Counted from the first letter of the stretch, positions 17,001 to 51,208 are shown. The stretch: 64,000 nt of DNA from the human T2T-CHM13v2.0 reference genome, Homo sapiens (GCA_009914755.4 CP068257.2:7200001-7264000); one strand, 5' to 3'. The notes: generated by a model not told the origin, from the letters alone. Numbers and translations are program-made.

Positions 17001-17099
17001 ATTGGAATGGAATGGAATGGAATCAACCCGAGTGGAATGGAATGGAGTGGAATGGAACACAATTGAATGGAATGGAATAGAATAGAATGCAATGGAATG

Positions 17100-18400: not shown

Positions 18401-18410
18401 TGGAATGGAA

Positions 18411-23259: not shown

Positions 23260-23700
23260 ATGGAGTGGAATCAACCAAAGAGGAATGGAATGGAATGTAA
23301 TGGAATGGAATGGAATGGAATGGAATGGAATGGAATGGAATGGATTGGAATGGAATGGAATTGAATGGAATGGAATCAACCAGAGTGGAATGGAGCGGAA
23401 TGGAATGGAATGGAATGGAATGGAATGGAATGGAATGGAATGGAATGGAATCAACCCGAGTGGAATTGAATGGAATGGAATGGAATGGAATCAACCCGAG
23501 TGGAATGGAAAGGAATGGAATGGAATGGAATGGAATGGAAAGGAATGGAGTGGAATCAACCCTAGAGGAATGGAATGGAATGGAATGGAATGGATTGGAA
23601 TGGAATGGAATCGAATGGAATGGAATCAACCAGAGTGGAATGGAGCGGAATGGAATGGAATGGAATGGAATGGAATGGAATGGGATGGAATGGAAATGAC
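23260..23700. repeat. ~246-bp tandem duplication (2 copies)
   Basis: The string caaccagagtggaatggagcggaatgg occurs at 23381 and 23627. ORF 23240..23827 shows an internal repeat: ...GINQSGMERNGMEWNG... appears twice. Confidence 0.6.
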
Positions 23701-24156
23701 TCAACCCGAGTGGAATGGAATGGAATGCAATGGAATGGAATGGAAAGCTATGGAATGGAAGAGAATGGAATGGAATCAACTCGAGGGTAAAGGAATGGAA
23801 TGGAAACGAATGGAATGGAATGGATAGGAATGGAATGCAATAGAATGTGATGGTATGGAATGGAGTCAAACCGAAAGGAAAGTAATGGAATGAAATTGAA
23901 TAGAATGGAAAGGAATGCAATGGAATGGAGTTGAATGGAATAAAACCCAGAGGAACGGAATGGAATGGAATGGATAGGAATGGAATGCAATGGAATGGAA
24001 TGAATTGGAATGGAATGGAATGAAATGGAATGGAATGAAATCAAACAGAGTGGAATGGAATGGAATGAAATGGAATGGAATGGAATTTATTGGAATGGAA
24101 TCAATTGGAATGGAATGAAATGGAATGGAATGGAATGCAATGGAATGGAATGGAAT

Positions 24157-24560
24157 CAACCCGAGTGGAATGGAATGCAATGGAATGCTATGGAATGGAA
24201 TGGAATGGAATTCAACTTAATGGAAACAAACCGAGTGGAATAGAATGGAACGGAAAGGACTGACATGTAATGGAATGGCTTGGAATCAACACGATAACAA
24301 TGCAACGGAATGGAATGGAATTGAATGGAATGCAATGGAATGGAATGGAATGGAATCAACCCGAGTGGAATGGAATGCAATGGAATGCTATGGAATGGAA
24401 TGGAATGGAATGGAATTCAACTTAATGGAAACAAACCGAGTGGAATGGAATGGAACGGAAAGGACTGACATGTAATGGAATGGATTGGAATCAACACGAT
24501 AACAATGCAACGGAATGGAATGGAATTGAATGGAATGCAATGGAATGGAATGGAAGGGAA
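24157..24560. repeat. ~201-bp tandem duplication (2 copies) carrying the diverged 'island' element
   Basis: The string caacccgagtggaatggaatgcaatggaatgctatgg occurs at 24157 and 24358. ORFs 24075..24263 and 24245..24475 share NATEWNG...MESTRVEWNAMECYGMEWNG. The minus-strand ORFs 24156..24380 and 24388..24807 also match. Confidence 0.7.
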
Positions 24561-27500
24561 TGGAATGGAATGCAAAGGAATAGAATGTACTGGAATGCAA
24601 TGGAATGGAATGGAATATAATTGAACTGAAAGCAATGGAATGGAATGGAATGGAATGGAATGGAATGGAATGAACCCGAATGGAGTGGAATGGAATGGAA
24701 TGGAATGGAATGGAATGGAACAGAATGGAATGAACCCGATTGGAATGCATTGGAATGGAATGGAAAGGAAAGGAATGGAATGGAATGGAATGGAATTGAA
24801 TGAACACAAGTGGAAATCGAATGGAATGGAATGGAATGGATTGGAATGGAATGGAATCGAATCAACCCGAGTGGAATAGAATGGAATTGAATGGAGTGGA
24901 ATGGAATGGAATTGAATCTAATAGAATGTAGTGGAATGGAAGGCGAAGGAATTGAATGGAATGGTATGGAATGGAATGGAATGGGATGGAAAAGAATGGG
25001 AAGGAAACAACCCGAATGAAATGGTGTGGAATGGAATGGAATCAACCCGAGTGGAATGGAATGGAATGAAATGCAATCAATCCGAATGGAATGGAATGGA
25101 ATGGAATGGAATGCTATGGAATCAAACAGAGAGGAATGGAAATGAATGGACTGGAATGGAATGGAATGGAATAGAATGGAATGGAAAAGAATTGAATGGA
25201 ATGGAAATACCCCGAGTGGAATGGAATGCAATGGAATGGAATGGAATGGAATTGAATGGAAAGTAATGGAATTCAACGGAATGCAATTAACTCACGTGGA
25301 ATGGATTGGAAAGGAATGAAATGCAATGGAATGGAAACAAAATCAACGGAATGGAATCAAAGAGTATGGAATGGAATGGAATGGAATGGGATGGAATGGA
25401 ATGGAATGGAATCAACCCGAGTGAAATGGAATAGAATAGAATTGAATGGAATCAACCTGAGTGGAACGGAATTGAATGGAAAGGAATGGAATGGAATCAA
25501 CCTGAGTGGAATGGAATGGAATGGAAAGGAATGGAATGGAATCAACCTGACTGGGATGGAATGGAATGTAAAGGAATGAATGGAATTGAATGGAATGGAA
25601 TGGTATGGAGTCAACCCGAGTGGAATGGAATGGAATGGAATGGAATGGAATACAATGGTATGGAATCAATCCGAGAGGAATAGAATGGAATGGAATGGAA
25701 TCAACCAGACAGGAATGGCACGGAATGGAATGGAATGGAATAGAACGGAATGGAATGGAACGGAAAGGAATGGAATGGAATTGATTGGAATCAACCAGAG
25801 TGGAATGTAATGGAACGAAATGCAATTGAATGGAATGGAATGTAACGGAACTGAATTGAAAGGAATTGAATGGAAAGAAACCGAATGGAATGGATTGGAA
25901 GGGAATGCAAAGTAATGGAATCAACCAGAATGGAATGGAATGGAATGGAGTGGAGTGGAATGGAATGGAATGGAATGGTATGGAATGGAATGGAATGGAA
26001 TGGAATCTACCCAAATGGAATGGAATTGAATGGAATGGAATGGAATGGCATGGAATGGTATGGAATCAACCCGAGTGGATTGGTATGGAACGGCAATGAA
26101 TGAAACGGAATTGAATGGAATAAAATGGAATGGAATGGAATGGAATCAACACGAGTGAAATGGAATGGCATGGAATGGAATGGCTTCAACAAGAGTGGAA
26201 TGGAATGAAATGGAATGGAAGGAAATTTAATGGAATGGATTCAACCTGAGTGGAAAGGAGGAAAATGGAATGGAATGTAATCAACCTGAGTGGAATGGAA
26301 TGGAATGCAATGCAATGGAATAGAATGGAATGGAAGACAGTGGAATCACCTGGAATGGAATGGAATGGAATGGAATGGAATGGAATCATTCCTTGTGTAA
26401 TGGAATGGAATGTAAAGGAGTGGAATGTAATGGAATGGTGTGGAATGGAATGGAATGGAATGGAATGGAATCAAACCGAATGGAATGGAACGGAATGCAA
26501 TGGAATTGAATTTAATGGAAAGGAATGGAATCAACCAGAAGGGAATGGTATGGAATTCAACGGAATGGAATGGAACGGAATGCTAAGGAAACAAACCGAG
26601 TGTAATGGAAAAGAATGGAATGGAATGGAATGGAATGGAATGGAATGGAATGGAATGGAGTGGAATGGAATCAAACCAATTGGAATGGAATGGAATGGAA
26701 TGCAACGGAATAAACCGGAGTGGAATGGAATGGAAAGGAATGGAATGGAATGGTATGGAATCAACCGAGTGTAATGGAATGGAATGTAATGGAAGGGAAT
26801 GGAATCAACCCGAATGTAATGGAACGGAAAGGAATGGAATGGAATGGAATGGAATCAACCCGAGTGGAATGCAAAGGAATGGAATGGAACGGAACGGAAC
26901 GGAACGGAATGGAATGGAAAGGAGTGGAATCAACCCCAGTGGAATGAAATGGAATGGAATGGAATGCAATGGAATGGAATCTAATGGTATCAACCCGAGT
27001 GGAAGGGAATGGAATGGATTGGAATGGAATGGAATGCTATGGAATCTACCCTGGGGGAATGGTATGGAATGGAATGGAATGGAATGGAATGGAATGGAAC
27101 GGAATAGAATAAAATGGAAAGGAATTGAGTTTAAGCAACCCGAGTGAAATAGAATGGAATGGAATCGCATCGAATGGGATGGGATGAAATCAACCCGAGA
27201 GGAATGGAATGGAAAGCAAAGAATCAATCGGAGGGGAATGCAATGTAATTTAATGGAATGAAACGGAATGGAATCAACCCGAGTGGAGTGGAATAAAATG
27301 GAATGGAATGGAATGGAATCAACCCGAGTGGAACGGAATGGAATGGAATGGAATGGAATCAAACCGACTGGAATGAAATGGAGTGGAATGCAATGGAATG
27401 GAATGGAGTGGTATGGAATCAACCCGAGTGGAATAGTATGGAATGGAATGGAATGGAACGAAATGGAATGGAAAAAAATGGAATGGAATGGAATGGAATC

Positions 27501-27599
27501 AACCCAAGTGAAATGGAATGGAAAGGAATGGAATGGAATCAACCCAAGTGAAATGGAATGGAAAGGAATGGAATGGAATCAACCAGAGTGGAATGGAAT

Positions 27600-28450
27600 G
27601 GAATGGAATGAAAGGGAATGGAATGTAAAGGAATCAACCTGTGTGGAATGGAATGGAAGGGAATGGAATGGAATGAAATGGAATATAATGGAATGGAATG
27701 GAATCATCCCGGGTTGAAAGGAATGTTATGGAATGCAACGGAACGGAATGGAACACAACGGAATGGAATGCAACGGAATAGATTGAATCAGAGAGGAATT
27801 GAATGGAGAGGAATGGATTGGAATGGAATGCAATGGATTCAACCCTAGTTGAATGTCATGGATTGGAAAGGAATGGAATGGAATGGAATGGAATGGAATG
27901 GAATGGAATGGAATGGAGTGGAATGGAATGGAGTGGAATCAACACGAATGGAATGGAACGGAATGGAATGGAATGTAATGGAATGAAATGGAATGGAATG
28001 GAATGGAAACAACACGAATAGAATGGAACGGAATGGAATGGAATGCTGTGGAATGGAAAGGATTGGAATGAAATAAACACGAATAGAATGGAACGGAATG
28101 GAATGGAACGGAATGGAATGGAATGGAAAGGAATGGAGTGAAATGGAAAGGAACGGAATGGAATTAACCCGAGTGGAATTGAATGGAATGGAAAGGAATA
28201 AACACGAGTGGAATGAAACGGAATGTAATGCAATGGAACGGAGCGGAATCATTCTGAGTGGAATGGAATGCAATGGAATGGCATGGAATGGAATGGAATG
28301 GAATGGAATGGAATGGAGTGGAGTGGAATGCAATGCAATGGAATGGAATGGAATGGAATCAACCCGAATGGAATGGAATGGAGTGGAATGGAATCAACAC
28401 GAATGGAATGGAATGGCATGGAATGGAATGGAATGGAATGGAATCAACCA
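27600..28450 (+). repeat. Ectopic island of the downstream (36.7-64 kb) HSat3 subfamily embedded in the upstream domain
   Basis: It contains gattgaatcagagaggaattgaatggagaggaatggattggaatggaatgcaatggattcaaccctagttgaatgtcatggattggaaagg at 27781. It also contains cacgaatagaatggaacggaatggaatggaatgctgtggaatgg at 28018 and 28078, and ggaattaacccgagtggaattgaatgg...gtaatgcaatggaacggagcggaatca at 28160. All three are signatures otherwise confined to >36.7 kb. ORF 27618..27848 matches 37507..37692. Confidence 0.7.
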
Positions 28451-28949
28451 GACTGGAATGGAGTGGAATGGAGTTTAATGGAATGGAATGGAATAGAATG
28501 GTATGGAATCAACACGAGAGGAATGGTATGGAATGGAATGGAATGGAACGGAATGGAATGGAATAAAATGGAATGGAATGGAATGGAATCAACCAGAGTG
28601 GAATGGAATGGAACGGAGTAGAATGCAATGGAATGGAATGGAATGCAATGAAATGGAAAGGAACGGAATGGAATCAACCCGAGTGGAATGGAAAGGAATG
28701 GAATGGAATCAACCCGAGTGGAATGGAATGGAATGGAATAGAATGGAATGGAATGGAATGTAACGGAATATAATGGAATGGAATTGAATCATCCCCAGTG
28801 GAATGGAATGCAATGGAATCAACAAGATTGAAATGGAGTGTAATGGACTGGAATGGAATCAACCCGAGTGGAATGCAATGGAATGGAACGGAAAGGAATG
28901 GCATGGAATGGAATGGAATGGAATCAGCCCGAGTAGAATGGAATGGAAT

Positions 28950-29850
28950 GGAATGCAATGGAATGGAATGGATAGTAATGGAACGGAACAGAATGGAATG
29001 GAATATAATGGAATGAACCCGAATGGAACGGAAGGAATGAACCCGAGTGGAATGGAATTGCATGGAATGGATTGGAATGGAATGGATTGGAATCAACCCG
29101 AGTGGAATGGAATGGAATAGAATGGAGTGGAATGGAATGGAATGGAATGGAATGGAATGGAATGGAATGGAATGGAATAGAATGGAATGGAATGAAATGG
29201 AATCAACCAGAATGGAATGGAATGGAATGGAATGGAATGGAAGGGAATGGAGTGAAATCGAGTGGAATCAATACGAGTGGAATGGAATGGAATGGAATGG
29301 AAGGGAATGGAATGGAATGGAATCAAACCGAGTGGAATGGAAAGGAATGGAATGGAAAGGAACGGAAAGGAATGGAAAGGAATGGAATGGATTGGTATGG
29401 AATCAACATTAGTGGAATAGAATGGAATGGAATGGAATGGAACAGAGTGGAATGGAATATAATGGAATGGAATGCAATGGAATCAACAAGAATGAAATGG
29501 AGTGTAATGGAATGGAATGGATTCAACCCGAGTGGAATGGAATGGAATCAACCCGAGTGGAATGGAATGTAATGGAATGGAATCAACCCGAGTGGAATCG
29601 AATGGAATGCAATGGAATGGAATGGAACGTTATGGAATGGAATAGATTGGAATGGAATCAACTTGAGGGGAAAGGAATGGAATGGATAGGAATGGAATGG
29701 AATGGATAGGAATGGAATGCAATGGAATGCAATGGTATAGAATGGAGTCAAACCGAGAGGAATGTAATGGAATGGAATTGAATGGAATGCAATGGAATGG
29801 AATGGAAACAACCCGAGTGGAATGGAATGCAATGGAATGCAATGGAATAG
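28950..29850 (+). repeat. Fifth copy of the recurrent ~1.2-kb module M1 (other copies at 360-1830, 6330-7560, 20600-21690, 21690-22450)
   Basis: ORFs 28803..29120 and 29072..29572 carry MQWNGMDSNG.EQNGME / MEGNGMEWNQTEWN / GMDWYGINISGIEWNG / AMESTRMKW.VMEWNG. ORF 29682..29885 carries MQWYRMESNREECNGMELNG. The ggattggtatggaatcaacattagtggaat signature is at 29390. Confidence 0.65.
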
Positions 29851-30430
29851 AATTCAACGTAATGGAAACAACCCGAGTGGAATAGAATGGAATGGAAAGG
29901 AATGAAATATAATGGAATGGATTGGAATCAACCCGAATCCAATGCAAGGGAATGGAATGGAAAGCAAAGCAACGGAATGGAATGGAAGGGAATGGAATGG
30001 AATGGAAAGGAATGGAATGGAATAAACAATAGTGGAATGATATGGAATGGAATGGAAAGGAATGGAATGGAATGGAATGTAATGGTATGGAATCAACCCG
30101 AGGGGAATGGTATGGAATGGAATGTATTGGAACGGAATGGAATGGAATAAAATGCACTGGAATGGAATGGAATCAACCCGAGAGAAGAGGAAGGGAATGG
30201 AATGGAATGGAATCACCACGAGGGGAATGGAATGGAATGGAATGGAATGGGATCGAATGGAATTGAATGGAATCACCCTGAGTGTAATGGAAGGGAATTG
30301 AATGGATTGGAATCAACGGGAGTGGAATGGAAAGGAATGGAATGGAATGGAATGGAATGGAATGGAATGGAATGAACGAAATCAACCTCAGTGGAATGGA
30401 ATGGAATGGAATGGAGTGGAATAGAATGGA

Positions 30431-33400
30431 ATGGACAATAATTGAATGGAATGGAAACACCCCGAGTGGAATGGAACGCAATGGAATGGAATGGAATGGA
30501 AAGTAATGGAATTCAACGGAATGGAACTAACTCGAGTGGAATGGAATGGAATGGAATGGAATGGAATGGAATGGAAACAAACTCAACGGAATGCAATCAA
30601 ACAGAATGGAATAGAATGGAATGGAATGGAATGGGATGGAATGGAATAGAATGGAATGGAATCAACCCGAATGAAATGAAATGGAATGGAATGGAATGGA
30701 ATCAACCTGAGTGGAATGGAATGGAATGGAATGGAAACGAATGGAATGTAATCAACCAGACTGGAATGGAAAGGAATGTAAAGGAATGAATGGAATTGAA
30801 TGGAATGGAATGGTATGAACACAACCCGAGTGGAATAGAATGGAATGGAATGGAATGAAATAGAATGGAATGGAACGGAATCAACCGGAGAGGAATGGAA
30901 TGGAATGAAATGGAAACAACCAGACTGGAATGGAACGGAACGGAATGCAATGGAATAGAACGGAATGGAATGGAACGGAACGAAATGGAATGGAATGGAA
31001 TGGAATCAACCCGACTAGAATGGAATGGAACGGAATGAAATGAAGTGGAATGGAATGTAACGGAACGGAATTGAAATGAATGGAATGGAATGAAACCGAA
31101 TGGAATGGATTGGAATGGATTGGAAGGGAATGCAATGCAATGGAATCAACCCGAATGGAATGGAGTGGAAAGGAATGGAGTGGAATGTTATGGAATGGAA
31201 TGGAATGGAATGGAATGGAATGGAATAAACCCGAGCGGAATGGAATTGAATGGAAGGCAATGGAATGGAATGGAATGGAATGGAATGGAATGCATTGGAA
31301 TCAACTGGAATGGAATGGAATGGAATGGAATGGAATGGAATGGAATCAATCCGGGTTGAATGGAATGGAATGGAATGGAGTCAAATGTAACGCAATGGAG
31401 TGGAATTGAATGGAATGGAATCAACCCGAATGAAATGGATTAGATTGGAATGCAATGGAATCAACCTGAGTGGAAAAGAATGGAATGGAATAGAATGGAA
31501 TGGAATGGAATGGAATAGAATGGAATTGAATGGAATGGAATTTAATGGAATGGAATGGAATGGAATGGAATCAAGCCGAATGGAAAGGAAAGGAATGGAA
31601 TGGAATGGAATGGAATGGAATGGAATGGAGTGAAATGGAATGCAATCAACACGATTGGAATGGAATGGAATGGAATGGAAGGGAATTGAATGGAATGGAA
31701 TCAAACCGAGTGGAATGGAATGGAATGAAATGGAAAGGAATTGAAAGGAATGGAAAGGAAAGGAATATACTGGTGTGGAATCAACAGTAGAGGAATGGAA
31801 TGGAACGGAATGCAATGGAATGGAACAGAATGGAATGGAAAGGAATGGAATGGAATCAACCCGAATTAAATGGAGTGGAATGGAATGGAATGGAATCAAC
31901 CCGAGTGGAATGGAATTGATTGGAATGGAATGGAATGGAATGGAATGGAATGGAATGGAATGGAATGGGATGGAATGGAATGGGATGGAATGGAATGGAA
32001 TCAAACCGAATTAAATGGAGTGGAATGGAATGGAACGGAATCAACCCGAGTGGAATGGAATTGAATGGAATGGAATGGAATGGAATGGAATGGAATGGAC
32101 AAGAATTGAATGGAATGGAAACACCCCGAGTGGAATGGAACGCAATGGAATGGAATGGAATGGAAAGTAATGGAATTCAACGGAATGGAACTAACTCGAG
32201 TGGAATGGAATGGAATGGAATGGAATGGAATGGAATGGAAACAAACTCAACGGAATGCAATCAAACAGAATGGAATGGAATGGAATGGAATGGAATGGGA
32301 TGGAATGGAATAGAATGGAATGGAATCAACCCGAATGAAATGAAATGGAATGGAATGGAATGGAATCAACCTGAGTGGAATGGAATGGAATGGAATGGAA
32401 AGGAATGGAATGTAATCAACCAGACTGGAATGGAAAGGAATGTAAAGGAATGAATGGAATTGAATGGAATGGAATGGTATGAACACAACCCGAGTGGAAT
32501 AGAATGGAATGGAATGGAATGAAATAGAATGGAATGGAACGGAATCAACCCGAGAGGAATGGAATGGAATGAAATGGAAACAACCAGACTGGAATGGAAC
32601 GGAACGGAATGCAATGGAATAGAACGGAATGGAATGGAACGGAACGAAATGGAATGGAATGGAATGGAATCAACCCGACTAGAATGGAATGGAACGGAAT
32701 GAAATGAAGTGGAATGGAATGTAACGGAACGGAATTGAAATGAATGGAATGGAATGAAACCGAATGGAATGGACTGGAATGGATTGGAAGGGAATGCAAT
32801 GCAATGGAATCAACCCGAATGGAATGCAGTGGAAAGGAATGGAGTGGAATTTTATGGAATGGAATGGAATGGAATGGAATGGAATGGAATGGAATGGAAT
32901 GGAATGGAATGGAATAAACCCGAGCGGAATGGAATTGAATGGAAGGCAATGGAATGGAATGGAATGGAATGGAATGGAATGCATTGGAATCAACTGGAAT
33001 GGAATGGAATGGAATGGAATGGAATGGAATTGAATCAATCCGGGTTTAATGGAATGGAATGGAATGGAGTCAAATGTAACGCAATGGAGTGGAATTGAAT
33101 GGAATGGAATCAACCCGAATGGAATGGATTAGATTGGAATGCAATGGAATCAACCTGAGTGGAAAAGAATGGAATTGAATAGAATGGAATGGAATGGAAT
33201 GGAATCAAGCGGAATGGAAAGGAAAGGAATGGAATGGAATGGAATGGAATGGAATGGAATGGAATGGAATGGAATGGAATGGAGTGAAATGGAATGGAAT
33301 CAACACGATTGGAATGGAATGGAATGGAATGGAAGGGAATTGAATGGAATGGAATCAAACCGAGTGGAATGGAATGGAATGGAATGGAAAGGAATTGAAA

Positions 33401-35380
33401 GGAATGGAAAGGAAAGGAATATACTGGTGTGGAATCAACAGTAGAGGAATGGAATGGAACGGAATGCAATGGAATGGAACAGAATGGAATGGAAAGGAAT
33501 GGAATGGAATCAACCCGAATTAAATGGAGTGGAATGGAATGGAATGGAATCAACCCGAGTGGAATGGAATTGATTGGAATGGAATGGAATGGAATGGAAT
33601 GGAATGGAATGGAATGAAATGGGATGGAATGGAATGGGATGGAATGGAATGGAATCAAACCGAATTAAATGGAGTGGAATGGAATGGAACGGAATCAACC
33701 CGAGTGGAATGGAATTGAATGGAATGGAATGGAATGGAATGGACAAGAATTGAATGGAATGGAAACACCCCGAGTGGAATGGAACGCAATGGAATGGAAT
33801 GGAATGGAAAGTAATGGAATTCAACGGAATGGAACTAACTCGAGTGGAATGGAATGGAATGGAATGGAATGGAATGGAATGGAAACAAACTCAACGGAAT
33901 GCAATCAAACAGAATGGAATGGAATGGAATGGAATGGAATGGGATGGAATGGAATAGAATGGAATGGAATCAACCCGAATGAAATGAAATGGAATGGAAT
34001 GGAATGGAATCAACCTGAGTGGAATGGAATGGAATGGAATGGAAAGGAATGGAATGTAATCAACCAGACTGGAATGGAAAGGAATGTAAAGGAATGAATG
34101 GAATTGAATGGAATGGAATGGTATGAACACAACCCGAGTGGAATAGAATGGAATGGAATGGAATGAAATAGAATGGAATGGAACGGAATCAACCCGAGAG
34201 GAATGGAATGGAATGAAATGGAAACAACCAGACTGGAATGGAACGGAACGGAATGCAATGGAATAGAACGGAATGGAATGGAACGGAACGAAATGGAATG
34301 GAATGGAATGGAATCAACCCGACTAGAATGGAATGGAACGGAATGAAATGAAGTGGAATGGAATGTAACGGAACGGAATTGAAATGAATGGAATGGAATG
34401 AAACCGAATGGAATGGATTGGAATGGATTGGAAGGGAATGCAATGCAATGGAATCAACCCGAATGGAATGCAGTGGAAAGGAATGGAGTGGAATTTTATG
34501 GAATGGAATGGAATGGAATGGAATGGAATGGAATGGAATGGAATAAACCCGAGCGGAATGGAATTGAATGGAAGGCAATGGAATGGAATGGAATGGAATG
34601 GAATGCATTGGAATCAACTGGAATGGAATGGAATGGAATGGAATGGAATGGAATGGAATTGAATCAATCCGGGTTTAATGGAATGGAATGGAATGGAGTC
34701 AAATGTAACGCAACGGAGTGGAATTGAATGGAATGGAATCAACCCGAATGGAATGGATTAGATTGGAATGCAATGGAATCAACCTGAGTGGAAAAGAATG
34801 GAATTGAATAGAATGGAATGGAATGGAATGGAATCAAGCGGAATGGAAAGGAAAGGAATGGAATGGAATGGAATGGAATGGAATGGAATGGAATGGAGTG
34901 AAATGGAATGGAATCAACACGATTGGAATGGAATGGAATGGAATGGAAGGGAATTGAATGGAATGGAATCAAACCGAGTGGAATGGAATGGAAAGGAATT
35001 GAAAGGAATGGAAAGGAAAGGAATATACTGGTGTGGAATCAACAGTAGAGGAATGGAATGGAACGGAATGCAATGGAATGGAACAGAATGGAATGGAAAG
35101 GAATGGAATGGAATCAACCCGAATTAAATGGAGTGGAATGGAATGGAATGGAATCAACCCGAATTAAATGGAGTGGAATGGAATGGAATGGAATCAACCC
35201 GAGTGGAATGGAATTGATTGGAATGGAATGGAATGGAATGGAATGGAATGGAATGGAATGGAATGGGATGGAATGGAATGGGATGGAATGGAATGGAATC
35301 AAACCGAATTAAATGGAGTGGAATGGAATGGAACGGAATCAACCCGAGTGGAATGGAATTGAATGGAATGGAATGGAATG
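30431..35380 (+). repeat. ~1.65-kb higher-order repeat, 3 near-identical tandem copies (30431-32094, 32095-33738, 33739-~35380)
   Basis: ORF sets recur with period 1664 then 1644: 30442/32110/33754, 30583/32247/33891 on the minus strand, 30702/32366/34010, 31080/32754/34398, and 31856/33510/35154. Translations are identical over as much as 142 aa between copies 2 and 3. The signature ggaatggacaaKaattgaatggaatggaaacaccccgagtgg is at 30431, 32093 and 33737. The end of copy 3 is the least certain boundary: I did not see identity to the other copies past ~35315. Confidence 0.88.
35111..35190. repeat. 40-bp tandem duplication inside HOR copy 3 (gaatcaacccgaattaaatggagtggaatggaatggaatg x2)
   Basis: Read directly: the unit starts at 35111 and again at 35151. 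The corresponding site in copies 1 and 2 (31851, 33505) carries the unit once. Confidence 0.8.
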
Positions 35381-35429
35381 GAATGGAATGGAATGGAATG
35401 GAATGGAATGGAATGGAATGGAATGGAAT

Positions 35430-36300
35430 CAACCCGAGAGGAATGGAATGGATTGGAATGGAACAGAATGGAATGGAATGGAATGGAATGGAAATAACTC
35501 AACCCGAGTGTAATGGAATGGAGTGCAATGGAATGGAATGGAACGGTATGGAATGGAATTGAATGGAATGGAATCAACTAGAGGGTAAAGGAATGCAATG
35601 GAATGGATAGGAATGAAATGCAATGGAATGCAGTGGTATGGAATGGAGTCAAACCGAGAGGAAAGTAATGGAATGAAATTGAATGGAATGGAATGGAATG
35701 CAATGGAATGGAATTGAATGGAATAAACCCCAGAGGAACGGAATTGAATGGAATGGAATGGAATGGATAGTAATGGAATGGAATGAATTGGAATGGAATG
35801 GAATGGAATGAAATCAAACAGAGTGGAATGGAACTGAAAGAAATGGAATGGAATGGAATTTATTGGAATGGATTCAACTGGAATGGAATGAATTGGAATG
35901 GAATGGAATGGAATGGAATGGAATGCAATGGAATGGAATGGAAACAACCCGACTGGAATGGAATGCAATGGAATGCTATGGAATGGAATGGAATGGAATT
36001 CAATGTAATGGAAACAAACCGAGTGGAATGAAATGGAACGGAAAGGACTGACATGTAATGGAATGGATTGGAATCAACAGGATTCCAATGCAACGGAATG
36101 GAATGGAATGGAATGGAATGGAATGGAATGGAATGGAATGCAATGGAATGGAATGGAAGGGAATGGAATGGAATACAAAGGAATGGAATGTACAGGAATG
36201 GAATGGAATAGAATGGAATATAATTGAAAGGAATGGAATGGAATGGAATGGAATGAACCCGAGTGGAGTGGAATGGAATGGAATGGAAATGAATGGAATG
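35430..36300. repeat. Segment related to 23750-24600 (offset ~11.8 kb)
   Basis: Minus-strand ORF 35429..35968 matches 23748..24044 and 23866..24180. ORFs 35783..36031 and 35848..36051 match 24010..24243 and 24075..24263. The island element caacMggattccaatgcaacgg is at 36071 and 24290. Confidence 0.6.
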
Positions 36301-37269
36301 CAATGGAATTAAATGGAAAGGAACGGAATGGAATCAACACGAGTGGAATGGAATGGAATGGAATGGAATGGAATCAACCCGAGTGGAATGGAATGGAATG
36401 GAGTTTAATGGAATGAAATAGAATAGATTGGTATTTAATCAACCTGAGAGGAATGGTATGGAATGGAATGGAATGGAATAAAATGGAATGGAATGGAATG
36501 GAATCAACCCGAGTGGAAGGGAATGGAATGGAATGGAATCAACCGGATTGGAATGGAATGGAATGGAATGGAGTGGAATGGAATGGAATGCAATGAAATG
36601 GAAAGGAATGCTATGGAATCAACCCGAGTGAAATGGAAATGAATGGAATGGAATGGAATGGAATGGAATGGAATCGAATGGAGTCAAGCCAAGTGCAATG
36701 GAATGGAATAGAATGCCACGGAATCAGCGCGAGTGGAATGGAATAGAAAGGCATGCAATGGAATGGGTTGGAAAGCAATGGAATGGAATCAACCCGACTG
36801 GAATGGAATGGAATGGAAAGGAATGAAGGGAATGGAATGGAATGGAAAGGTATGGAATCAACCCGAGTGGAATGGAATGGAAAGAAATGAAATGGAATGG
36901 AATGGAAAGGTATGGAATCAACCCGAGTGGAATGGAATGGAATGGAATGAAATGGAATGGAATGGAGTGGAATGGAAGGTAAGGCAATGGAATGGAATGG
37001 AATGGAATGGAACGGAACGGAATGGAATTGAATGGCATGGAATGAACCTGAACGGAATGGATTGGAATGGAATGGAATGGAATGGAATGGAATCGAATCA
37101 GCTCGAGTGGAATGAAATGTAATGGAATGCAGTGGAATGGAATGGAATTGAATGGAATGGAATGGAATGCAATGGAATGGAATGGAATGGAATCAAACGG
37201 ATTGGAATGGAATGGAATGGAATGGAATGGAATGGAATGGAATGGCATGGAATCAAACCGAGTGAAATG

Positions 37270-39350
37270 GAATGGAATGGTATGGAATCAACCCGAGTGG
37301 AATATTATCGAATGGAATGGAATTGAACGGAATGCATTGGAATAAAATGGAATGAAATGGAATGGAATCAACCAGAGTGGAATGGAATGGAATGGAGTGG
37401 AATGGAATATAATGGAATGGAACAGAATTAAATGGAAAGGAACGGAATGGAATCAACACGAGTGGAATGGAATGGGATGGAATGGAATGGAATCAACCCG
37501 AGTTGAATGGAATGGAATGGAATGCAATGGAATGAAACGGAATATAATGGAATGGAATGGAAACATCCCAAGAGGAAAGGAATGGTATGGAATGCAATGG
37601 AACGGAATGGAACAGAACGGAATGGAATGGAATGGAATAGATTGAATCAGAGAAGAATTGAGTGGAGAGGAATGGATTGGAATGGAATGTAATGCATTCA
37701 CCCCTAGTTGAATGTAATGGATTGGAAAGGAATGGAATGGAATGGAATGGCGTGGAATGGAATAGAATCAACTCGAGTGGAATGGAATGTAATGGAATGG
37801 AGTGGAATCGAATGGAATGGAATGGAGTCAACCCGAGTGGAATATTATCGAATGGAATGGAATGGAACGGAATGGAATAAAGGAATGGAATAAAATATAA
37901 TGGAATGGAATGGAATCAACCGGAGTGGAATGGAATGGAATGGAGTGGAATGGAATAAAATGGAATGGAATGGAACTAAATGGAAAGGATCAGAATGGAA
38001 TCAACACGAGTGGAATGGAATGGAATGGAATGGAATGGAATGGAATGGAATCAACCCGAGTGGAATGGAATGGAATGGAATGCAATGGAATGAAACAGAA
38101 TAAAGTGGAATGGAATGGAAACATCCCGAGTGGAATGGAATGGTATGGAATGCAATGGAACGGAATGGAACAGAACAGAATGGAATGGAATGGAATAGAT
38201 TGAATCAGAGAGGAATTGAAGGGAGAGGAATGGATTGGAATGGAATGGAATGGATTCAACCCTAGTTGAATGTCACGGATTGGAAAGGAATGGAATAGAA
38301 TGGAATGGAATGGAGTGGAATGGAATGGAGTGGAATCAACAAGAGTGGAATGGAACGGAATGGAATGGAATGGAATGGAATGGAATGGAATGGAATGGAA
38401 ACAACACGAATAGAATATAACGGAATGGAATATAATGCTGTGGAATGGAATGGAATGGAATGAAATAAACACGAATAGAATGGAACGGAATGGAATGGAA
38501 AGGAATGGAATGGAATGGAATGGAATAGAATGGAGTGAAATGGAAAGGAACGGACTGGAATTAATCCGAGTGGAATTGAATGGAATGTAATGCAATGGAA
38601 TGGAGCGGAATCAACCTGAGTGGAATGGAATGGAATGGAATGGAATGGAATGGAATGGAGTGGAATGGAATTGAATGGAATGCAATGGAATGGAATGGAA
38701 TGGGATCAACCCGAATGGAAGGGAACGGAATGGAATGGAAAGGAATGGAATGGAATGGAATGGAATAGAATGGAATTGAATAGATTGAATCAGAGAGGAA
38801 TTGAATGGAGAGGAATGGATTGGAATGGAATGCAATGGATTCAAATCTAGTTGAATGGAATGGAATGGAATGGAATGGAATGGAGTGGAATGGAATGGAG
38901 TGGAATCAACTGGAATGGAATGGAATGGAATGGAATGGAATGGAAACAACACGAATAGAATGGAACGGAATGGAATGGAATGCTGTGGAATGGAAAGGAG
39001 TGGAATGAAATAAACACGAACAGAGTGGAACGGAATGGAATGGAATGGAATGGAATGAAATGGAATGGAATGGAATGGAATGGAGTGAAATGGAAATGAA
39101 CGGAAAGGAACTAAACCGAGTGGAACTGAATGGAATGGAAAGGAATCAACCCGAGTGGAATGAAATGGAATGTAATGCAACGGAATGGAGCGGAATCAAC
39201 CTGAGTGGAATGTCATGGAATGGAATGGAATGGAATGGAATGAAATGAAATGGAATGGAACGGAATGGAAATAACCCGAGTGGAATGGAATGGAATGGAA
39301 AGGAATCAACCCGAGTGGAATGAAATGGAATGTAATGCAATGGAAAAGAG
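37270..39350 (+). repeat. ~570-bp higher-order repeat, ~3.6 tandem copies, within the downstream subfamily
   Basis: The signature element is at 37641, 38201 and 38790, spaced 560 and 589 bp apart. ORF 37352..37645 matches 37910..38203 at a 558-bp offset. ORFs 37662, 38235 and 38805 (MERNGLEWNAMDS.LVE) are spaced 573 and 570 bp. Minus-strand ORFs 37990..38595 and 38611..39180 match. Confidence 0.7.
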
Positions 39351-42300
39351 CGGAATCAACCCGAGTCGAATGAAATGGAATGGAATGGAAAGGAGTGGAA
39401 TGGAATGGAATGCAATGGAATTGAATGGAATGGGATGCAATGGAATGGAATGGAATCCAATGGAATCAACTGGAATGGAATAGCATAGAATGGAATGGAA
39501 TGGAATGGAATCAATCCGGGTGGAATGGAATGGAATGTATTGAGTGGAATGGAATGGAATGGAATGCAGTGGAATTTAATGGAATGGAATCAACCCGAAT
39601 GGAATGGAACGGAATGGAATGGAAAGGAATGGAATGGAATGGAATGGAATGGAATGGAATCAACCCGAATGGTATGGAATAGAATGGAATGGATTGGAAT
39701 GGAATGCAATGGAATGCTATGGAATCAATCCGAGTGTAAGGGAAATGCATGGAATGGAATGGAATGGACTGGAATTAACCCAATTGCAATGGAATGGAAT
39801 GGAATGCAACGGAATCAACCCAAGTGGAATGGAATGGAAAGGAATGGAATGAAATGGAATGGAAAGGAATAGAATGGAATCAACCTGAATGGAATGAATT
39901 GGAATGGAAAGGAATGAATGTAATGTAATGGAATGGAATGGAATGGAATGGAATGGAATGGGATGGAATCAACCCGAGTGGAATGGAATGGACAGGAATG
40001 GAATAGAATTGAATGGAATGGAATGGAATGGAATGGAATGGAATGGAATGGAATGCAATGGAATGGAATGGAATGGAACGGAATGGAATGGAATGGAACG
40101 GAATGGAAACGAATGAACCCGAGTGGAGTGAAATGGAATGTAATGCAATGGAATGGAGCGGAATCAACCTGATTGGAATTGAATGGAATGGAATGGAATG
40201 GAATGCAATGGAATGGAATTAAATCAACCCGAATGGAATGGAACGCAATGGAAAGGAAAGGAATGGAAAAGAATGGAATGGAAAGGAATGGAAAGGAATG
40301 GAATGGAATGGAATGGAATGGAATGGAATGGAATCATCCCTAGTGGAATGGAATGGTATGGAATGCAATGGAATGGAATGGAGCAGAACGGAATGGAGTG
40401 GAATGGAATAGATTGAATCCGAGAGGAATTGACTTGAGTGGAATGGATTGGAATGGAATGCAAGGGATTCAACCCATTTGAATGTCATGGATTGGAAAGG
40501 AGTGGAATGGATTGGAATGGAAAGGAGTGGAATGTAATGGAATAGAATCAACACGAATGGAATGGAACAGAATGGAATGGAATGGAAACAACACGAATGG
40601 AATGGAACGGAACGGAATGGAATGGAATGCTGTGGAATGGAAAGAATTGGAACGAAATAAACACGAATAGAATGGAACGGAATGGAATGGAAAGGAATGG
40701 AATGGAATGGAATGGAATGGAATGGAATGGAATGGAATGGAATGAAATGGAAAGGAACGGAATGGAATTAACCCGAGTGGAACGGAATGGAATGGAAAGG
40801 AATCAACCCGAGTGGAATGAAATGGAATGTAATGCAATGGAATGGAATGGAATGGAATGGTATGGAATCAACCCGAGTGGAATATTATCGAATGGAATGG
40901 AATGGAACGGAATGGAATGGAATAAAATGTAATGTAATGGAATGGAATCAACAGGAGTGCAATGGAATGGAATGGAGTGGAATGGAATATAATGGAATGG
41001 AATGGAATTAAATGGAAAGGAAAGGAATGGAAGCAACACGAGTGGAATGGAATCAACCCGAGTGGAATGGAATGGAATGCAATGCAATGGAATGAAACGG
41101 AATATAATGGAATAGAATGGAAACATCCTGAGTGGAATGGAATGGTACGGATTGCAATGGAACGGAATGGAAAAGAACGGAATGGAATGGAACGGAATAG
41201 ATTGAATCAGAGAGGAATTGATTGGAGAGGAATGGATTGGAATGGAATGCAATGGATTCAACGCTAGTTGAATATCATGGATTGGAAAGGAATGGAATGG
41301 AATGGAATGGAGTGGAGTGGAATGGAATAGAATCAACTCGATTGGAATGTAATGTAATGGAATGGAGTGGAATGGAATGGAATTGAATGGAATGGATGGA
41401 ATGGAATGGAATGGAATGGAATGGAATGGAATGGGGTGGAATGGAATGGAAAGCAATGAAATGGAAAGGAATGCTATGGAATCAACCCGAGTGTAATGGA
41501 AATGAATGGAATGGAATGGAATGGATTGGAATGGAATGGAATGGAATCAAGCCAAGTGCAATGGAATGGAATAGAATGCAACGGAATCAACACGAGTGGA
41601 ATGGAATAGAAAGGCATGCAATGGAATGGAATGGAAAGCAATGGAATGGAATCAACCCGACTGGAATGGAATGGAGTGGAAAGGAATGAATGGAATGGAA
41701 TGCAATGGAAAGGTATGGAATCAACCCGACTGGAATGGAATGGAATGGAATGGAATGGAATGGAATGGAATGGAGTGGAATGGAAGGCAATGCAATGGAA
41801 TGGAACGGAATGCAATGGAACGGAACGGAATGGAATTGAATGGCAGGGAATGAACCCGAATGGAATGGAATGGAATGGAATGGAATGGAATATAATCAAC
41901 TCGAGTGGAATGGAGTGTAATGGAATGGAGTGGAATGGAATGGAAATGAATGGAATGGAATGGAATGGAATGGAACGGAATGGAATGGAATGGAATCAAC
42001 ACGACAGGAAAGGAATGGAATGGAAAGGAATGGAATGGAATCAACCAGAGTGGAATGGAATGGAATGGAATGAAATGGAATTGAACGGAATACAATGGAA
42101 TTCAATGGAGTCACCCCGAGTGGAATGGCATGGTATGGAATGCAATGGAATGGAATGGAACAGAACGGAATGGAATGGAATCAATAGATTGAATCCGAGT
42201 GGAATTGAATGGAATGGAATGGATTCGAATTTAATGGAATGGATTGGAATGTAAAGCAATTATTTCAAACCGATTGGAATGTCATGGATTGGAATGGAGT

Positions 42301-45300
42301 GCAATGGAATGGAATGGAATGGAAAGGAATGGAGTGAAATGGAGTAAACACCAGTGGAATGAAATGGAATGGAATGAAATACAATGGAATGGAATGGAAT
42401 GGAATGAACCCGAATGGAATGGAATGGAATGAAATCAACCAGAGTGGAATGGAATGGTATGGAATGGAATCGAATGGAATGGAAAGGAATGGAATCAACT
42501 CTAATGGAAAAAAATGGAATGGAATGGAATGGAAACAACACGAATGGAATGGAACGGAACGGAATGGAATGGAATGCTGTGGAATGGAAAAAATTGGAAC
42601 GAAATAAACACGAATAGAATGGAACAGAATGGAATGGAAAGGAATGGAATGGAATGGAATGGAATGGAATGGAATGGAATCGAATGAAATGGAAAGGAAC
42701 GGAATGGAATTAACCCAAGTGGAATGGAATGGAAAGGAATCAACCCGAGTGGAATGAAATGGAATGTAATGCAATGGAATGGAGCGGAATCAACCTGAGT
42801 CGAATGCAATGGAATGGAATGGAAAGGAGTGGAATGGAATGGAATGGAATGGAATGGAATGGGATGCAATGGAACGGAATAGAATCCAATGGAATCAACT
42901 CGAATGGAGTAGCATAGAATGGAATGGAATGGAATGGAATCAATCCGGGTGGAATGGAATGGAATGTATGGAGTGGACTGGAATGGAATGGAGTGGAATG
43001 GAATGGAATGGAATGCAGTGGAATTTAATGGATTGGAATCAACCCGAATGGAATGGAACGGAGTGGAATGGAAAGGAAAGGAATGGAATGGAATGGAACG
43101 GAACGGAATGGAATGGAATGGAATGGAATGGAATGGAATGGAATGGAATGGAATGCAATGGAATGCTATGGAATCAATCCGAGTGTAAGGGAAATGCATG
43201 GAATGGAATGGAATGGAATGGAATTAACCCAAGTGCAATGGAATGGAATAGAATGCAACGGAATCAACCCAAGTGGAATGTAATGGAAAGGAATGGAATG
43301 AAATGGAATGGAAAGAATGGAATGGATTCAACCCGAATGGAATGAAATGGAATGGAAAGGAATGAATGGAATGGAATGGAATGGAAAGGAATCAACCCGA
43401 GTGGAATGAAATGGAATGTAATGCAATGTAATGGAGTGGAATCAACCTGATTGGAATGGAATGGAATGCAATGGAATGGAATGGAATGAAATCAACCCGA
43501 ATGGAATGGAACGGAATGGAAAGGAAAGGAATGGAATGGAATGGAATGGAAATGAATGGAATGGAATCATCCCGAGTGGAATGGAATGGTATAGAATGCA
43601 ATGGAATGGAATGGAACAGAACGGAATGGCGTGGAATGGAATAGATTGAATCCAAGAGGAATTGACTTGAGTGGAATGGATTGGAATGGAATGCAAGGGA
43701 TTCAACCCAGTTGAATGTCATGGATTGGAAAGGAGTGGAATGAATTGGAATGGAAAGGAGTGGAATGGAATGGAATGGAATCAACACGAATGGAATGGAA
43801 CGGAATGGAATTGAATGGAAACAACACGAATGGAATGGAAGGGAATGGAATGGAATGGAATGCTGTGGAATGGAAAAAATGGGAAAGAAAAAAACACGAA
43901 TTGAATGGAACAGAATGGAATGGAAAGGAATGGAATGGAATGGAATGGAATCGAATGAAATGGAAAGGAACGGAATGGAATTAACCCGAGTGGAACGGAA
44001 TGGAATCGAAAGGAATCAACCCGAGTGGATTGAAATGGAATGTAATGCAATGGAATGGAGCGGAATCAACCTGAGTCAAATGCAATGGAATGTAATGCAA
44101 TGGAATGGAGCGGAATCAACCTGAGTCAAATGCAATGGAATGTAATGGAAAGGAGTGGAATGGAAAGGAATGGAAAGGAATGGAATGAAATGGGATGCAA
44201 TGGAACAGAATGGAATCAAATGGAATCAACTGGAATGGAATAGCATAGAATGGAATGGAATGGAATGGAATCAATCCGGGTGGAATGGAATGGAATGTAA
44301 GGAGTGGAATAGAATGGAATGGAGTGGAATGGAATGGAATGTAATGCAGTGGAATTTAATGGAATGGAATCAACCCGAATGGAATGGAACGGAATTGAAT
44401 GGAATGGAATGGAATGGAATGGAATGGAATGTAATGGAATGCAATGAAATGGAATCAACCCGAATGGGATGGAATGGAATGGAATGCAATGGAATGGAAT
44501 GGAATGGAAAGGAATGCAATGGAATGCTATGGAATGAACCCGAGTGTAAGGGAAAAGCATGGAATGGAATGGAATGGAATGGAATCGAATCAACCCAAGT
44601 GCAATGGAATGGAATGGAATGCAACGGAATCAACCCGAGTGGAATGAAATGCAAAGGAATGGAATGAAATGGAATGGAAAGGAATGGAATGGAATCAACC
44701 CGAATGGAATGGAATAAAAAGGCATGCAATAGAATGGAATGGAAAGCAATGGAATAGAATCAACCCGACTGGAATGGAATGGAATAGAAAGGAATGAATG
44801 TAAAGGAATGGAATGGAAAGGTATGCAATCAACTCCAGTGGAATGGAATGGAATGGAATGGAATGGAATGGAGAAGAATGGAAGGCAAAGCAATGGAATG
44901 GAAAGGAATGGAATGGAATGGAATGGAATGGAATGGAATGGAATGGAATCAACTCGAGTGAAATGGAATGTAATGAAATGGAGTGGAACGGAATGGAATT
45001 GAATGGAAAGGAATGGAACGGAATGGAATGGAATGGAATCGAATGCAATGAACCCAAATGGAATGGAATGGAATGGAATGGAATGGAATGGAATGGAAAG
45101 GAATGGAATGGAATGGAAAAAACCCGACTGGAATGGAATGGAATGGAATGGAATGGAGTGGAATGGAAGGCAATGCAATGGAATGGAATGGAATGGAAAG
45201 GAATGGATCGGAATGGAATTAAATGGCATGGAATGGAATCAACCCGTATCGAATGGAATGGAATGGAATGGAATGGAATGGAATGGAATGGAATGGAATC

Positions 45301-50940: not shown

Positions 50941-51208
50941 AATAGAAAGGCATGCAATGGAATGGAATGGAAAGAAATGGAATGGAATTAACCCGACTGG
51001 AATGGAAAGGAATGGAAAGGAATGAAGGGAATGGAATGGAATGGAAATGTACGGAATCAACCCGAGTGGAATGGAATAGAAAGGCATGCAATGGAATGGA
51101 ATAGAAAGCAATGGAATGGAATTAACCCGACTGGAATGGAAAGGAATGGAAAGGAATGAAGGGAATGGAATGGAATGGAAATGTATAGAATCAACCCGAG
51201 TGGAATGC
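50941..51208. repeat. ~134-bp tandem duplication (ggaatagaaaggcatgcaatgg...gaaatgta[c/t]rgaatcaacccgagtgg x2)
   Basis: Read directly: the unit starts at 50941 and again at 51075. The ggaatagaaaggcatgcaatggaatggaatggaaagcaatggaatggaatcaacccgactgg motif also occurs singly at ~36740, 41600, 44715, 46775, 48525 and 49305. Confidence 0.75.

What the first reader, a model, noticed from the sequence alone, without database searches (positions are those of the whole stretch)
36300..36900. Subfamily boundary inside the array at ~36.7 kb, with an ectopic island of the downstream subfamily at 27.6-28.45 kb
Upstream of ~36.7 kb the junction motifs are mostly CAACCCGAGT and CAACTCGAGGGGAAAGG, and the signature modules are M1 type. 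Downstream the array is dominated by a ~95-bp element (GATTGAATC.GAGAGGAATTGA..GGATTCAACCC(T)AGTTGAATGTCATGGATTGGAAAGG) and by CAACACGAATAGAATGGAACGG and GGAATGCTGTGGAATGG junctions. An ~850-bp block of the downstream type sits at 27.6-28.45 kb, about 9 kb before the boundary. This points to an inter-subfamily conversion or insertion event.
Basis: seen in the sequence. Interest (0 to 1): 0.5.

Follow-up and report, generated by a model that had tools for sequence, protein, structure and literature searches.

The report
Variant-domain junction in HSat3 satellite
Inside one long (GGAAT)n satellite array, two locally homogenised sequence variants meet at a sharp junction near 36.3-36.5 kb, and one stray unit of the second variant sits 8 kb inside the first; this is real but is the ordinary patchwork that unequal exchange produces in satellite DNA.

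Summary
The whole window is one same-strand (GGAAT)n / CAACCCGAGT satellite of HSat3 type. K-mer painting, nearest-neighbour mapping and paralogue alignments all show two domains. A-type paralogy ends at about 36,255. Unambiguous B-type paralogy starts at about 36,550. The gap is a module that both types share.

Corrections:
- CAACCCGAGT is equally dense in both halves.
- CAACTCGAGGGGAAAGG has only 5 copies.
- "Subfamily" rank is unproven. 5-mer composition does not separate the domains cleanly, and the published 24-mer set was not available for HSat3.

The most likely origin is non-allelic homologous exchange between array variants, either a gene-conversion patch or unequal crossover. All three switch points abut copies of one shared ~200-bp module (P about 0.02-0.03, post hoc). 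Conversion and relic boundary cannot be told apart here.

Local variation of repeat structure within HSat arrays is already documented. Interest is low.

The parts
1..23500 (+). Domain A: (GGAAT)n/CAACCCGAGT satellite with irregular multi-kb paralogy (for example 0-3.5 kb ~ 6-9.3 kb ~ 20.3-22.3 kb, and 4-7 kb ~ 17.4-21.3 kb)
   Evidence: Tile matrix, nearest-neighbour map, k-mer distance spectrum with peaks at 564, 1117 and about 5.4-6.0 kb
23500..27335 (+). Sub-domain A' (left part). Block X (23.5-24.65 kb) is paralogous to 35.4-36.26 kb. Block Y' (25-26 kb) is paralogous to the 1.65-kb unit at 30.3-35.4 kb. 26-27.3 kb has low similarity to everything.
   Evidence: the best single changepoint in 5-mer PC1 is at about 24.8 kb, and it is weak
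27377..27579 (+). Copy of the shared ~200-bp module M, abutting the left edge of the island (93% to the A copy at 11,634-11,836; 86-94% to B R-modules)
27620..28750 (+). B-type island, about one B-type unit: modules P (27,650-27,917), Q (27,977-28,380) and R (28,381-28,750). Only B-specific k-mers are present from 27,651 to 28,250.
27781..27872 (+). Island copy of the 92-bp B-signature element (variant v1), 1 mismatch in 92 to the copy at 55,520
28875..30000 (+). A-type block that resumes after the island, collinear at 0.89-0.96 with 0.65-1.7 kb, 6.2-7.1 kb and 20.4-21.3 kb
30356..35408 (+). Young local tandem amplification of a 1.64-1.66-kb A-type unit, about 3.1 copies at 94-99.8% identity. 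It pushed the island about 3.4 kb further from the junction.
35370..36255 (+). Last A-type block (X), 92-97% identical to 23.95-24.65 kb. It ends in a 9-unit perfect (GGAAT) run at 36,095-36,139.
36212..36550 (+). A-to-B junction zone. It contains a copy of shared module M/R (36,212-36,402; 92% to B copies, 90% to A copies) followed by generic sequence.
36550..64000 (+). Domain B: irregular nested repeat built from modules R, P, Q and others. It holds 23 copies of the 92-bp element in two sub-variants (11 v1, 12 v2), with k-mer distance peaks at about 1.72, 3.5, 5.2-5.4 and 7.0 kb.

Best explanation
The window is one uninterrupted, same-strand array of HSat3-type pericentromeric satellite. It contains two locally homogenised repeat variants, or nested-tandem-repeat types.

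Domain A, with a patchwork sub-domain A' at 23.5-36.25 kb, meets domain B at a sharp junction within 36,255-36,550. A single B-type unit of about 1.1 kb (modules P-Q-R) is embedded in A' at 27,620-28,750.

Both the junction and the island were most likely produced by non-allelic homologous exchange between misaligned repeats of the two variants. That exchange could be unequal crossover or a short gene-conversion tract. It appears to have started or resolved in a ~200-bp module M/R that both variants share.

A later local amplification of a 1.65-kb A-type unit (30.36-35.41 kb) moved the island further from the junction.

Shown: the two domains, the positions of the switches, the B identity of the island, and the young amplification. 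Inferred: the exchange mechanism and the role of the shared module. No function beyond array structure is implied.
For: - One period-5 array with no strand switch (no forward-strand hits).
- Two k-mer and paralogy domains with an abrupt switch.
- The island's P and Q modules occur only in B: 19 of 19 and 12 of 12 other copies.
- R->P->Q is a native B order, for example at 53,746-54,793.
- The island copies nest inside B diversity, with mean distance 0.10 against a B range of 0.084-0.15.
- The 92-bp element in the island differs by 1 of 92 bases from a B copy.
- Module M has 47 copies across both domains, and a copy abuts each of the three switch points. Permutation gives P = 0.02-0.03.
- The 30.4-35.4 kb amplification at 94-99.8% identity is younger than the island, which is 7-10% from its nearest B copy.
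- Independent metagenome contigs carry B-type sequence at 88-93% identity, so B is a real family and not a local artefact.
- The literature reports that HSat2,3 repeat structure varies along arrays and expands hyper-locally (bioRxiv 10.1101/2021.07.12.452052).
Against: - No donor close to the island exists in the window, so a recent conversion from the adjacent B sequence is excluded. The direction of the event is unknown.
- The insertion-versus-replacement test was inconclusive.
- The left flank of the island is not collinear with what lies upstream of the A paralogues of its right flank. The island therefore sits at an A-type paralogy break, which fits a rearranged relic equally well.
- The module-M coincidence is post hoc. 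It needs a 30-bp tolerance, and it is partly built in, because R is a native part of B units.
- Assembly correctness could not be checked.
Confidence: 0.65

Rival explanations
1. Relic boundary. The original A/B junction lay at about 27.6 kb. The 7.5-kb A-type block at 28.75-36.25 kb was later placed or expanded inside the first B unit by unequal exchange and then local amplification. On this reading the 'island' is the stranded first unit of domain B and not a transferred piece.
For: - The block between the island and the junction is a patchwork with its own history: an alpha-like piece at 28.9-30.0 kb, a 1.65-kb unit x3.1 at 94-99.8%, and X.
- Before the amplification the island was only about 4 kb from the junction.
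- The best long alignment of the island plus flanks is to 37.8-39.1 kb, near the start of B.
- The island sits at an A-type paralogy break.
- The island's 7-10% divergence from B copies fits an old event.
Against: - The R module ending the island (28,533-28,735) and the R-like module opening domain B (36,232-36,400) are only about 87% identical. That is lower than each is to other B copies at 89-92%, so there is no sign of a recent split or duplication of one R.
- The 26-27.6 kb sequence to the left of the island is A-like or generic, as expected under either model.
Confidence: 0.25
2. The two halves are two different published HSat3 subfamilies (Altemose 2014 nomenclature) abutting each other, and the island is an inter-subfamily transfer.
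For: - 24-mer sharing is 0.21-0.28 within domains and 0.08-0.11 between them.
- A block-cross-validated classifier separates the domains at 88-94%, even with 5-mers.
- Several chromosomes carry more than one HSat3 subfamily (Table 1 of PMC4022460).
Against: - Unsupervised 5-mer clustering, the published criterion, does not separate them: silhouette 0.18 with interleaved labels.
- Both share CAACCCGAGT at equal density and module M.
- Background identity between the domains is about 77-83%, close to that within domains outside paralogous blocks.
- None of the 14 diagnostic 24-mers distinguishes the halves.
Confidence: 0.3
3. Assembly artefact. The junction and/or the island are mis-joins or collapsed reads in a hard-to-assemble satellite.
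For: Satellite arrays are prone to mis-assembly. The switch points lie in a module that is repeated 47 times, which is exactly where an assembler could jump.
Against: - Both island edges would have to be errors.
- The island is 7-10% diverged from every B copy in the window, so it is not a misplaced copy of the local B sequence.
- Strand, composition and pentamer register are continuous.
- No read data were available to test this.
Confidence: 0.07
4. No real boundary: gradual drift along one homogeneous array, and the island is a chance cluster of motifs.
For: 5-mer PCA is dominated by (GGAAT)n purity and shows only a weak changepoint, at 24.8 kb. Some B tiles look generic.
Against: - The switch is complete within 300-400 bp in four independent analyses.
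- The island is a z = 8-10 outlier.
- 31 of 31 other P and Q copies lie in the 43% of the window that is B.
Confidence: 0.01

Closest known systems
Human satellite 3 (HSat3) pericentromeric arrays and their subfamilies (Altemose et al. 2014, PMC4022460)
   Same: Pentameric (CATTC/GGAAT)n-derived repeat with interspersed CAACCCGAGT-type 10-mers. There is no fixed monomer. Kilobase-scale irregular repeat units occur, and sequence variants occupy physically distinct blocks.
   Different: The two variants here could not be matched to named subfamilies. They are not cleanly separable in 5-mer space, so they may be sub-variants of one subfamily. A human origin is inferred, not shown.
Nested tandem repeats (NTRs) with periodicity that varies along HSat2,3 arrays (Altemose et al., T2T centromere maps, bioRxiv 10.1101/2021.07.12.452052)
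   Same: Different local repeat structure in adjacent parts of one array: about 1.7-kb-related spacing in B, about 5.4-6 kb and 564 bp in A, and a 1.65-kb young amplification at 30-35 kb. This fits hyper-local expansion.
   Different: That work describes the variation at array scale. Here one junction and a single stray unit are resolved to a few hundred bp.
Alpha-satellite HOR-haplotype domains, layered expansion and intra-array conversion (established satellite-evolution models: Smith 1976 unequal crossover; Dover 1982 molecular drive; cited from my own knowledge)
   Same: Locally homogenised variant domains with sharp borders and occasional foreign units, explained by unequal exchange and gene conversion.
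   Different: A different satellite family, with no discrete monomer or HOR and no kinetochore role. No symmetry or layering can be judged from 64 kb.

Membership tests
HSat3 (human satellite 3) | Derived from a tandem pentamer (CATTC)n = (GGAAT)n | tested here: met
   TRF finds one array at 11-64,000, period 5, consensus TGGAA, 71% matches. There are 172 perfect runs of 6 or more units.
HSat3 (human satellite 3) | Interspersed ~10-bp CAACCCGA(A/G)T / A(C/T)TCGGGTTG motif (classical description by Prosser et al. 1986, from my own knowledge; the motif is also inside the 3B1 diagnostic 24-mer in Table 1 of PMC4022460) | tested here: met
   154 copies of CAACCCGAGT, evenly spread.
HSat3 (human satellite 3) | Distinct from HSat2 (no HSat2 diagnostic 24-mers) | tested here: met
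   The top 24-mers of HSat2A1, 2A2 and 2B give 0 hits even with up to 2 mismatches.
HSat3 (human satellite 3) | Located in a human (or great-ape) pericentromere | not testable with these tools
   No human reference was available. Six metagenome contigs carry B-type sequence. One has a flank that looks like L1 from my own recollection.
Two distinct Altemose-2014 HSat3 subfamilies | Reads form separate clusters in 5-mer frequency space | tested here: inconclusive
   For 800-bp tiles, unsupervised k-means and spectral clustering gave interleaved labels with silhouette 0.18. A supervised block-CV classifier reached 88.5% at k=5. The sample is tiny compared with the 396,228 reads used in the paper.
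Two distinct Altemose-2014 HSat3 subfamilies | Each half carries subfamily-specific 24-mers of a different subfamily | not testable with these tools
   Only the 14 top 24-mers were available. They gave 1 exact hit, 3B1 at 51,187, and no A/B contrast. The held copy of Dataset S2 is cut. The part read lists only HSat2A1 rows, and a search of it for six HSat3 subfamily labels found none.
Gene-conversion patch within a tandem array | Donor-type tract flanked on both sides by recipient-type sequence | tested here: met
   B-type sequence at 27,620-28,750 lies between A-type sequence at 27,376-27,600 and at 28,875 onward.
Gene-conversion patch within a tandem array | Tract ends lie in sequence homologous between donor and recipient | tested here: inconclusive
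   Module M copies sit at 27,377-27,579 and 28,550-28,749, and at the main junction at 36,212-36,402. Permutation gives P = 0.02-0.03, but the test is post hoc.
Gene-conversion patch within a tandem array | Replacement of homologous recipient sequence without net insertion | tested here: inconclusive
   In two A paralogues the flank modules are 64-119 bp apart, against 1,278 bp at the island. The long-gap alignment was fragmented, for the controls as well.
Gene-conversion patch within a tandem array | An identifiable donor that is much closer than family background | tested here: not met
   The nearest B copy is 7-8% diverged over modules P and Q, while B-to-B nearest neighbours are often at 1.5-5%. 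Only the 92-bp element is near-identical. A donor may lie outside the window.

The most novel reading that the evidence does not exclude
The ~200-bp module M/R, shared by both variants, may be a preferred site for non-allelic exchange in this HSat3 array. On that reading, variant-domain borders and stray units array-wide sit at M copies. This would give a sequence-level handle on how human classical satellites homogenise and form domains.
Probability: 0.1. Interest if true: 0.4.

Novelty: new member of a known kind. Interest (0 to 1): 0.15.

Why it matters
It matters little on its own. The finding documents, to a resolution of a few hundred bp, how two locally homogenised variants of a classical satellite abut, and that single units can be stranded in or transferred into the neighbouring domain. 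Such junctions are useful as unique anchors for assembly validation, read mapping and haplotype comparison inside otherwise featureless arrays. If surveyed array-wide, they could also test whether exchange points prefer particular shared modules. The finding does not point to a new kind of element or function.

Tried and rejected
1. Named-subfamily assignment. Only the 14 top 24-mers of Table 1 (PMC4022460) could be tested, and they were uninformative. The stored Dataset S2 is cut, the part read lists only HSat2A1, and a search of it for six HSat3 subfamily labels found none.
2. Unsupervised 5-mer PCA, k-means and spectral clustering. These are dominated by (GGAAT)n purity and did not recover the domains. 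Longer k-mers did.
3. Strict higher-order periodicity. TRF reports only the pentamer. The k-mer distance spectra show irregular peaks, not a clean HOR.
4. Insertion versus replacement. A long-gap alignment of 26.6-30.0 kb to three A paralogues fragmented into many pieces, as it did for the controls, so the result is inconclusive.
5. Independent confirmation of the island. An island-unique 34-mer had 0 hits in metagenome contigs.
6. B-specific 28-mer and 22-mer in bacterial and archaeal genome contigs, looking for contaminating human satellite: 0 hits.
7. The motif scan that did hit returned 6 metagenome contigs, none above 93% identical to the window. It gave no cross-check of either junction.
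8. A fuzzy-regex census of the 92-bp element timed out and was replaced by blastn.
9. One control (25,500-26,350) is not valid, because my exclusion rule removed the region that holds its paralogues.
10. A chance or gradual-drift explanation was rejected.

Full report
WHAT THE WINDOW IS

All 64 kb are one continuous tandem array on one strand. Tandem Repeats Finder reports a single period-5 array from 11 to 64,000 with consensus TGGAA. GC content (0.40-0.42) and GC skew are flat. The 10-mer CAACCCGAGT occurs 154 times. HSat2 diagnostic 24-mers are absent even with two mismatches, and no satellite k-mer hits the opposite strand. This is the anatomy of human satellite 3. A human origin is inferred from that anatomy and was not tested against a reference.

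CHECKING THE OBSERVATION

Motifs. None lies in 0-27.7 kb or 28.5-37.6 kb. All others are beyond 37.6 kb, plus exactly one each at 27.78-28.04 kb.

The supposed upstream markers do not hold. CAACCCGAGT is equally dense on both sides, at about 2.5 and 2.3 per kb. CAACTCGAGGGGAAAGG has only five copies.

Domain structure. A 1-kb tile matrix of shared 20-mers shows tiles 37-63 as one block, and tiles 27-28 join it. I trained k-mers on 0-26 kb and 40-64 kb and read the held-out middle. Upstream-specific k-mers stop near 36.25 kb and downstream-specific ones start near 36.5 kb. A leave-neighbourhood-out painting of the whole window gives the same picture, with no A-like bin anywhere in B.

In the nearest-neighbour map of 500-bp tiles, every tile from 36,501 on has its best hits in B. 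Every tile in 1-26,501 and 29,001-36,001 has them in A, except tile 16,001, whose top hit is a background-level 81% match in B. Tiles 27,501-28,501 have their best hits in B.

BREAKPOINTS

- Main junction, A side. The best A paralogue (23.95-24.65 kb) is 92-97% identical to 35.7-36.14 kb, and still 92.9% over 36,115-36,255.
- Main junction, B side. The best B paralogues (41.43-41.75 kb and 49.2-49.45 kb) reach 93-98% from 36,540-36,560 onward.
- Between them, 36,240-36,400 matches a module present in both domains (92% to B copies, 90% to A copies).
- The junction therefore lies within about 36,255-36,550.
- Island. Sliding 150-bp windows scored against A-only and B-only references give strong B signal from about 27,620-27,650 to about 28,380. 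Weak B signal continues to about 28,850, and strong A signal returns from about 28,880.
- Paralogue profiles extend B collinearity to about 28,750.

ANATOMY OF THE B TYPE AND THE ISLAND

The island consists of three modules: P (27,650-27,917), Q (27,977-28,380) and R (28,381-28,750). A weakly diagnostic R-like copy precedes them at 27,335-27,610.

P has 19 other copies and Q has 12, all within 37.4-63.2 kb. R has five B copies and one A copy. R->P->Q is a native B order, for example at 53,746-54,793.

- v1: ...ATCAGAGAGG...GCAATGGATTCAACCCTAGTTG (11 B copies plus the island copy)
- v2: ...ATCCGAGAGG...GCAAGGGATTCAACCC-AGTTG (12 B copies)

The island copy is v1 and differs by one base in 92 from the copy at 55,520.

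Query 27,600-28,450:

| Target | Bits | Identity | Length |
|---|---|---|---|
| 37,300-38,600 | 656 | 88.3% | 596 bp |
| Own flanks | 200 | 82.6% | 333 bp |
| Best anywhere in A | 264 | 80.5% | 589 bp |
| Best anywhere in B | 809 | 86.4% | 848 bp |

Background identity between any two stretches of this satellite is about 77-83%.

B-only k-mer positions per 500 bp are 97 and 78 in the island. A bins give 12.4 +/- 8.2 (z = 10.3 and 8.0) and B bins give 120 +/- 40.

IS IT A 'SUBFAMILY' BOUNDARY?

This part is not established. The published HSat2,3 subfamilies were defined by clustering reads in 5-mer frequency space (PMC4022460).

I applied that representation to 800-bp tiles. Unsupervised clustering gave interleaved labels and a silhouette of 0.18, with PC1 tracking (GGAAT)n purity. 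Supervised, block-cross-validated classifiers do separate the halves: 88.5% at k=5 and up to 93.6% at k=8. They always call the island tiles B. Unsupervised clustering on 10- and 14-mers also recovers B plus the island. The fraction of 24-mers shared is 0.21-0.28 within domains and 0.08-0.11 between them. For the island it is 0.45-0.50 to B and 0.20 to A.

The 14 diagnostic 24-mers of Table 1 gave one exact hit, 3B1 at 51,187, and no contrast between the halves. The stored full list is cut. The part read lists only HSat2A1, and a search of it for six HSat3 subfamily labels found none. The safe description is two variant domains of one HSat3 array.

HISTORY AND MECHANISM

The region between 23.5 kb and the junction is a patchwork, in this order:

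1. X (23.5-24.65 kb)
2. Y' (25-26 kb)
3. A low-similarity stretch (26-27.3 kb)
4. The island
5. An alpha-like A block (28.9-30.0 kb), collinear with 0.65-1.7, 6.2-7.1 and 20.4-21.3 kb
6. A 1.65-kb unit in about 3.1 tandem copies at 94-99.8% identity (30,356-35,408)
7. X again (35.4-36.26 kb)

.

The 1.65-kb amplification is the youngest event. Before it, the island lay only about 4 kb from the junction.

The island copies of P and Q nest inside B diversity, with mean distance 0.10 against a B range of 0.084-0.15. Their nearest B copy is 7-8% away, whereas many B copies have a neighbour at 1.5-5%. The island is therefore a genuine B unit, but not a recent copy of anything in this window.

A ~200-bp module M (reference copy 11,634-11,836) has 47 copies in both domains and covers 13.6% of the window. 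A copy abuts each of the three A/B switch points: 27,377-27,579, 28,550-28,749 and 36,212-36,402. The chance of that is 0.02-0.03 by permutation with 30-60 bp tolerance. This is what homology-guided non-allelic exchange (unequal crossover or gene conversion) would produce. The test is post hoc, and it is partly built in because R is a native part of B units.

I could not separate 'B unit transferred into A' from 'A block placed inside the first B unit'. In two A paralogues the island's flank modules are only 64-119 bp apart, against 1,278 bp at the island. But the long-gap alignment meant to show a clean insertion fragmented, as it did for the controls. The R that ends the island and the R-like module that opens B are only about 87% identical, so there is no sign of a recent split.

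EXTERNAL EVIDENCE

- An island-unique 34-mer found nothing in metagenome contigs.
- Two B-specific k-mers found nothing in bacterial and archaeal genome contigs.
- The motif GATTGAATCNGAGAGGAATTGA found six metagenome contigs. Their best matches are all in B, at 88-93% identity.

The B type therefore exists in independent samples, but neither junction could be cross-checked. Assembly correctness could not be tested.

COMPARISON WITH WHAT IS KNOWN

The T2T centromere study names the irregular kilobase units of HSat2,3 'nested tandem repeats'. [quoted passage not shown] Several chromosomes carry more than one HSat3 subfamily.

Variant domains with sharp borders and stray units are the classic outcome of unequal exchange and conversion in tandem arrays (Smith 1976 and Dover 1982, cited from my own knowledge). 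The finding is a well-resolved instance of this known behaviour.

VERDICT

This is a new member of a known kind, and interest is low (0.15).

Noticed in passing
window 30356-35408: Young local tandem amplification of a 1.64-1.66-kb A-type unit, about 3.1 copies at 94-99.8% identity. This is by far the most recent duplication in the window and is likely to be copy-number polymorphic.
   Followed up: partly
window 270-1280: A 564-bp tandem duplication. Modules at 270-550 and 834-1114, and at 516-715 and 1080-1279, give identical scores to the same queries. 564 bp is the top k-mer distance in domain A.
   Followed up: no
window 23500-26000 vs 30400-36255: Blocks X (23.5-24.65 kb ~ 35.4-36.26 kb, locally 92-97%) and Y' (25-26 kb ~ the 1.65-kb unit, 87%) occur on both sides of the island but in the order X-Y' ... 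Y-Y-Y-X, which a simple tandem duplication does not give. A weak 5-mer composition changepoint lies at about 24.8 kb.
   Followed up: partly
window 37640-62378: The 92-bp B-signature element has two sub-variants, v1 (CAACCCTAGTTG, 11 copies) and v2 (CAACCC-AGTTG with GACTGGAGTGG, 12 copies). v1 is concentrated at 37.6-41.2 kb and 52-61 kb. v2 runs at 40.4-50.8 kb and alternates with v1 beyond 53 kb. This suggests sub-domains within B.
   Followed up: no
window 36841-36960: A 60-bp local tandem duplication (ggaatggaaaggtatggaatcaacccgagtggaatggaatgga at 36,841 and 36,901) inside the first B-type unit. It coincides with the identity dip at 36,880-36,940 against both B paralogues.
   Followed up: no
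window 44500-45500 and 48500-50000: Stretches of domain B that classifiers call A-like or generic and that have weaker B-specific k-mer signal. They may be spacer modules common to both variants.
   Followed up: no
L005 1-1400; L001 800-1319; L006 1000-1884: Metagenome contigs that carry B-type satellite also contain non-satellite flanks. The L005 flank resembles a mammalian L1 3' region from my own recollection. These may be real satellite/non-satellite junctions of the host genome or chimeric contigs.
   Followed up: no
window 36095-36139: A perfect 9-unit (GGAAT) run sits just before the end of A-type paralogy. Such runs are common (172 runs of 6 or more units in the window), so no significance is claimed.
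   Followed up: partly
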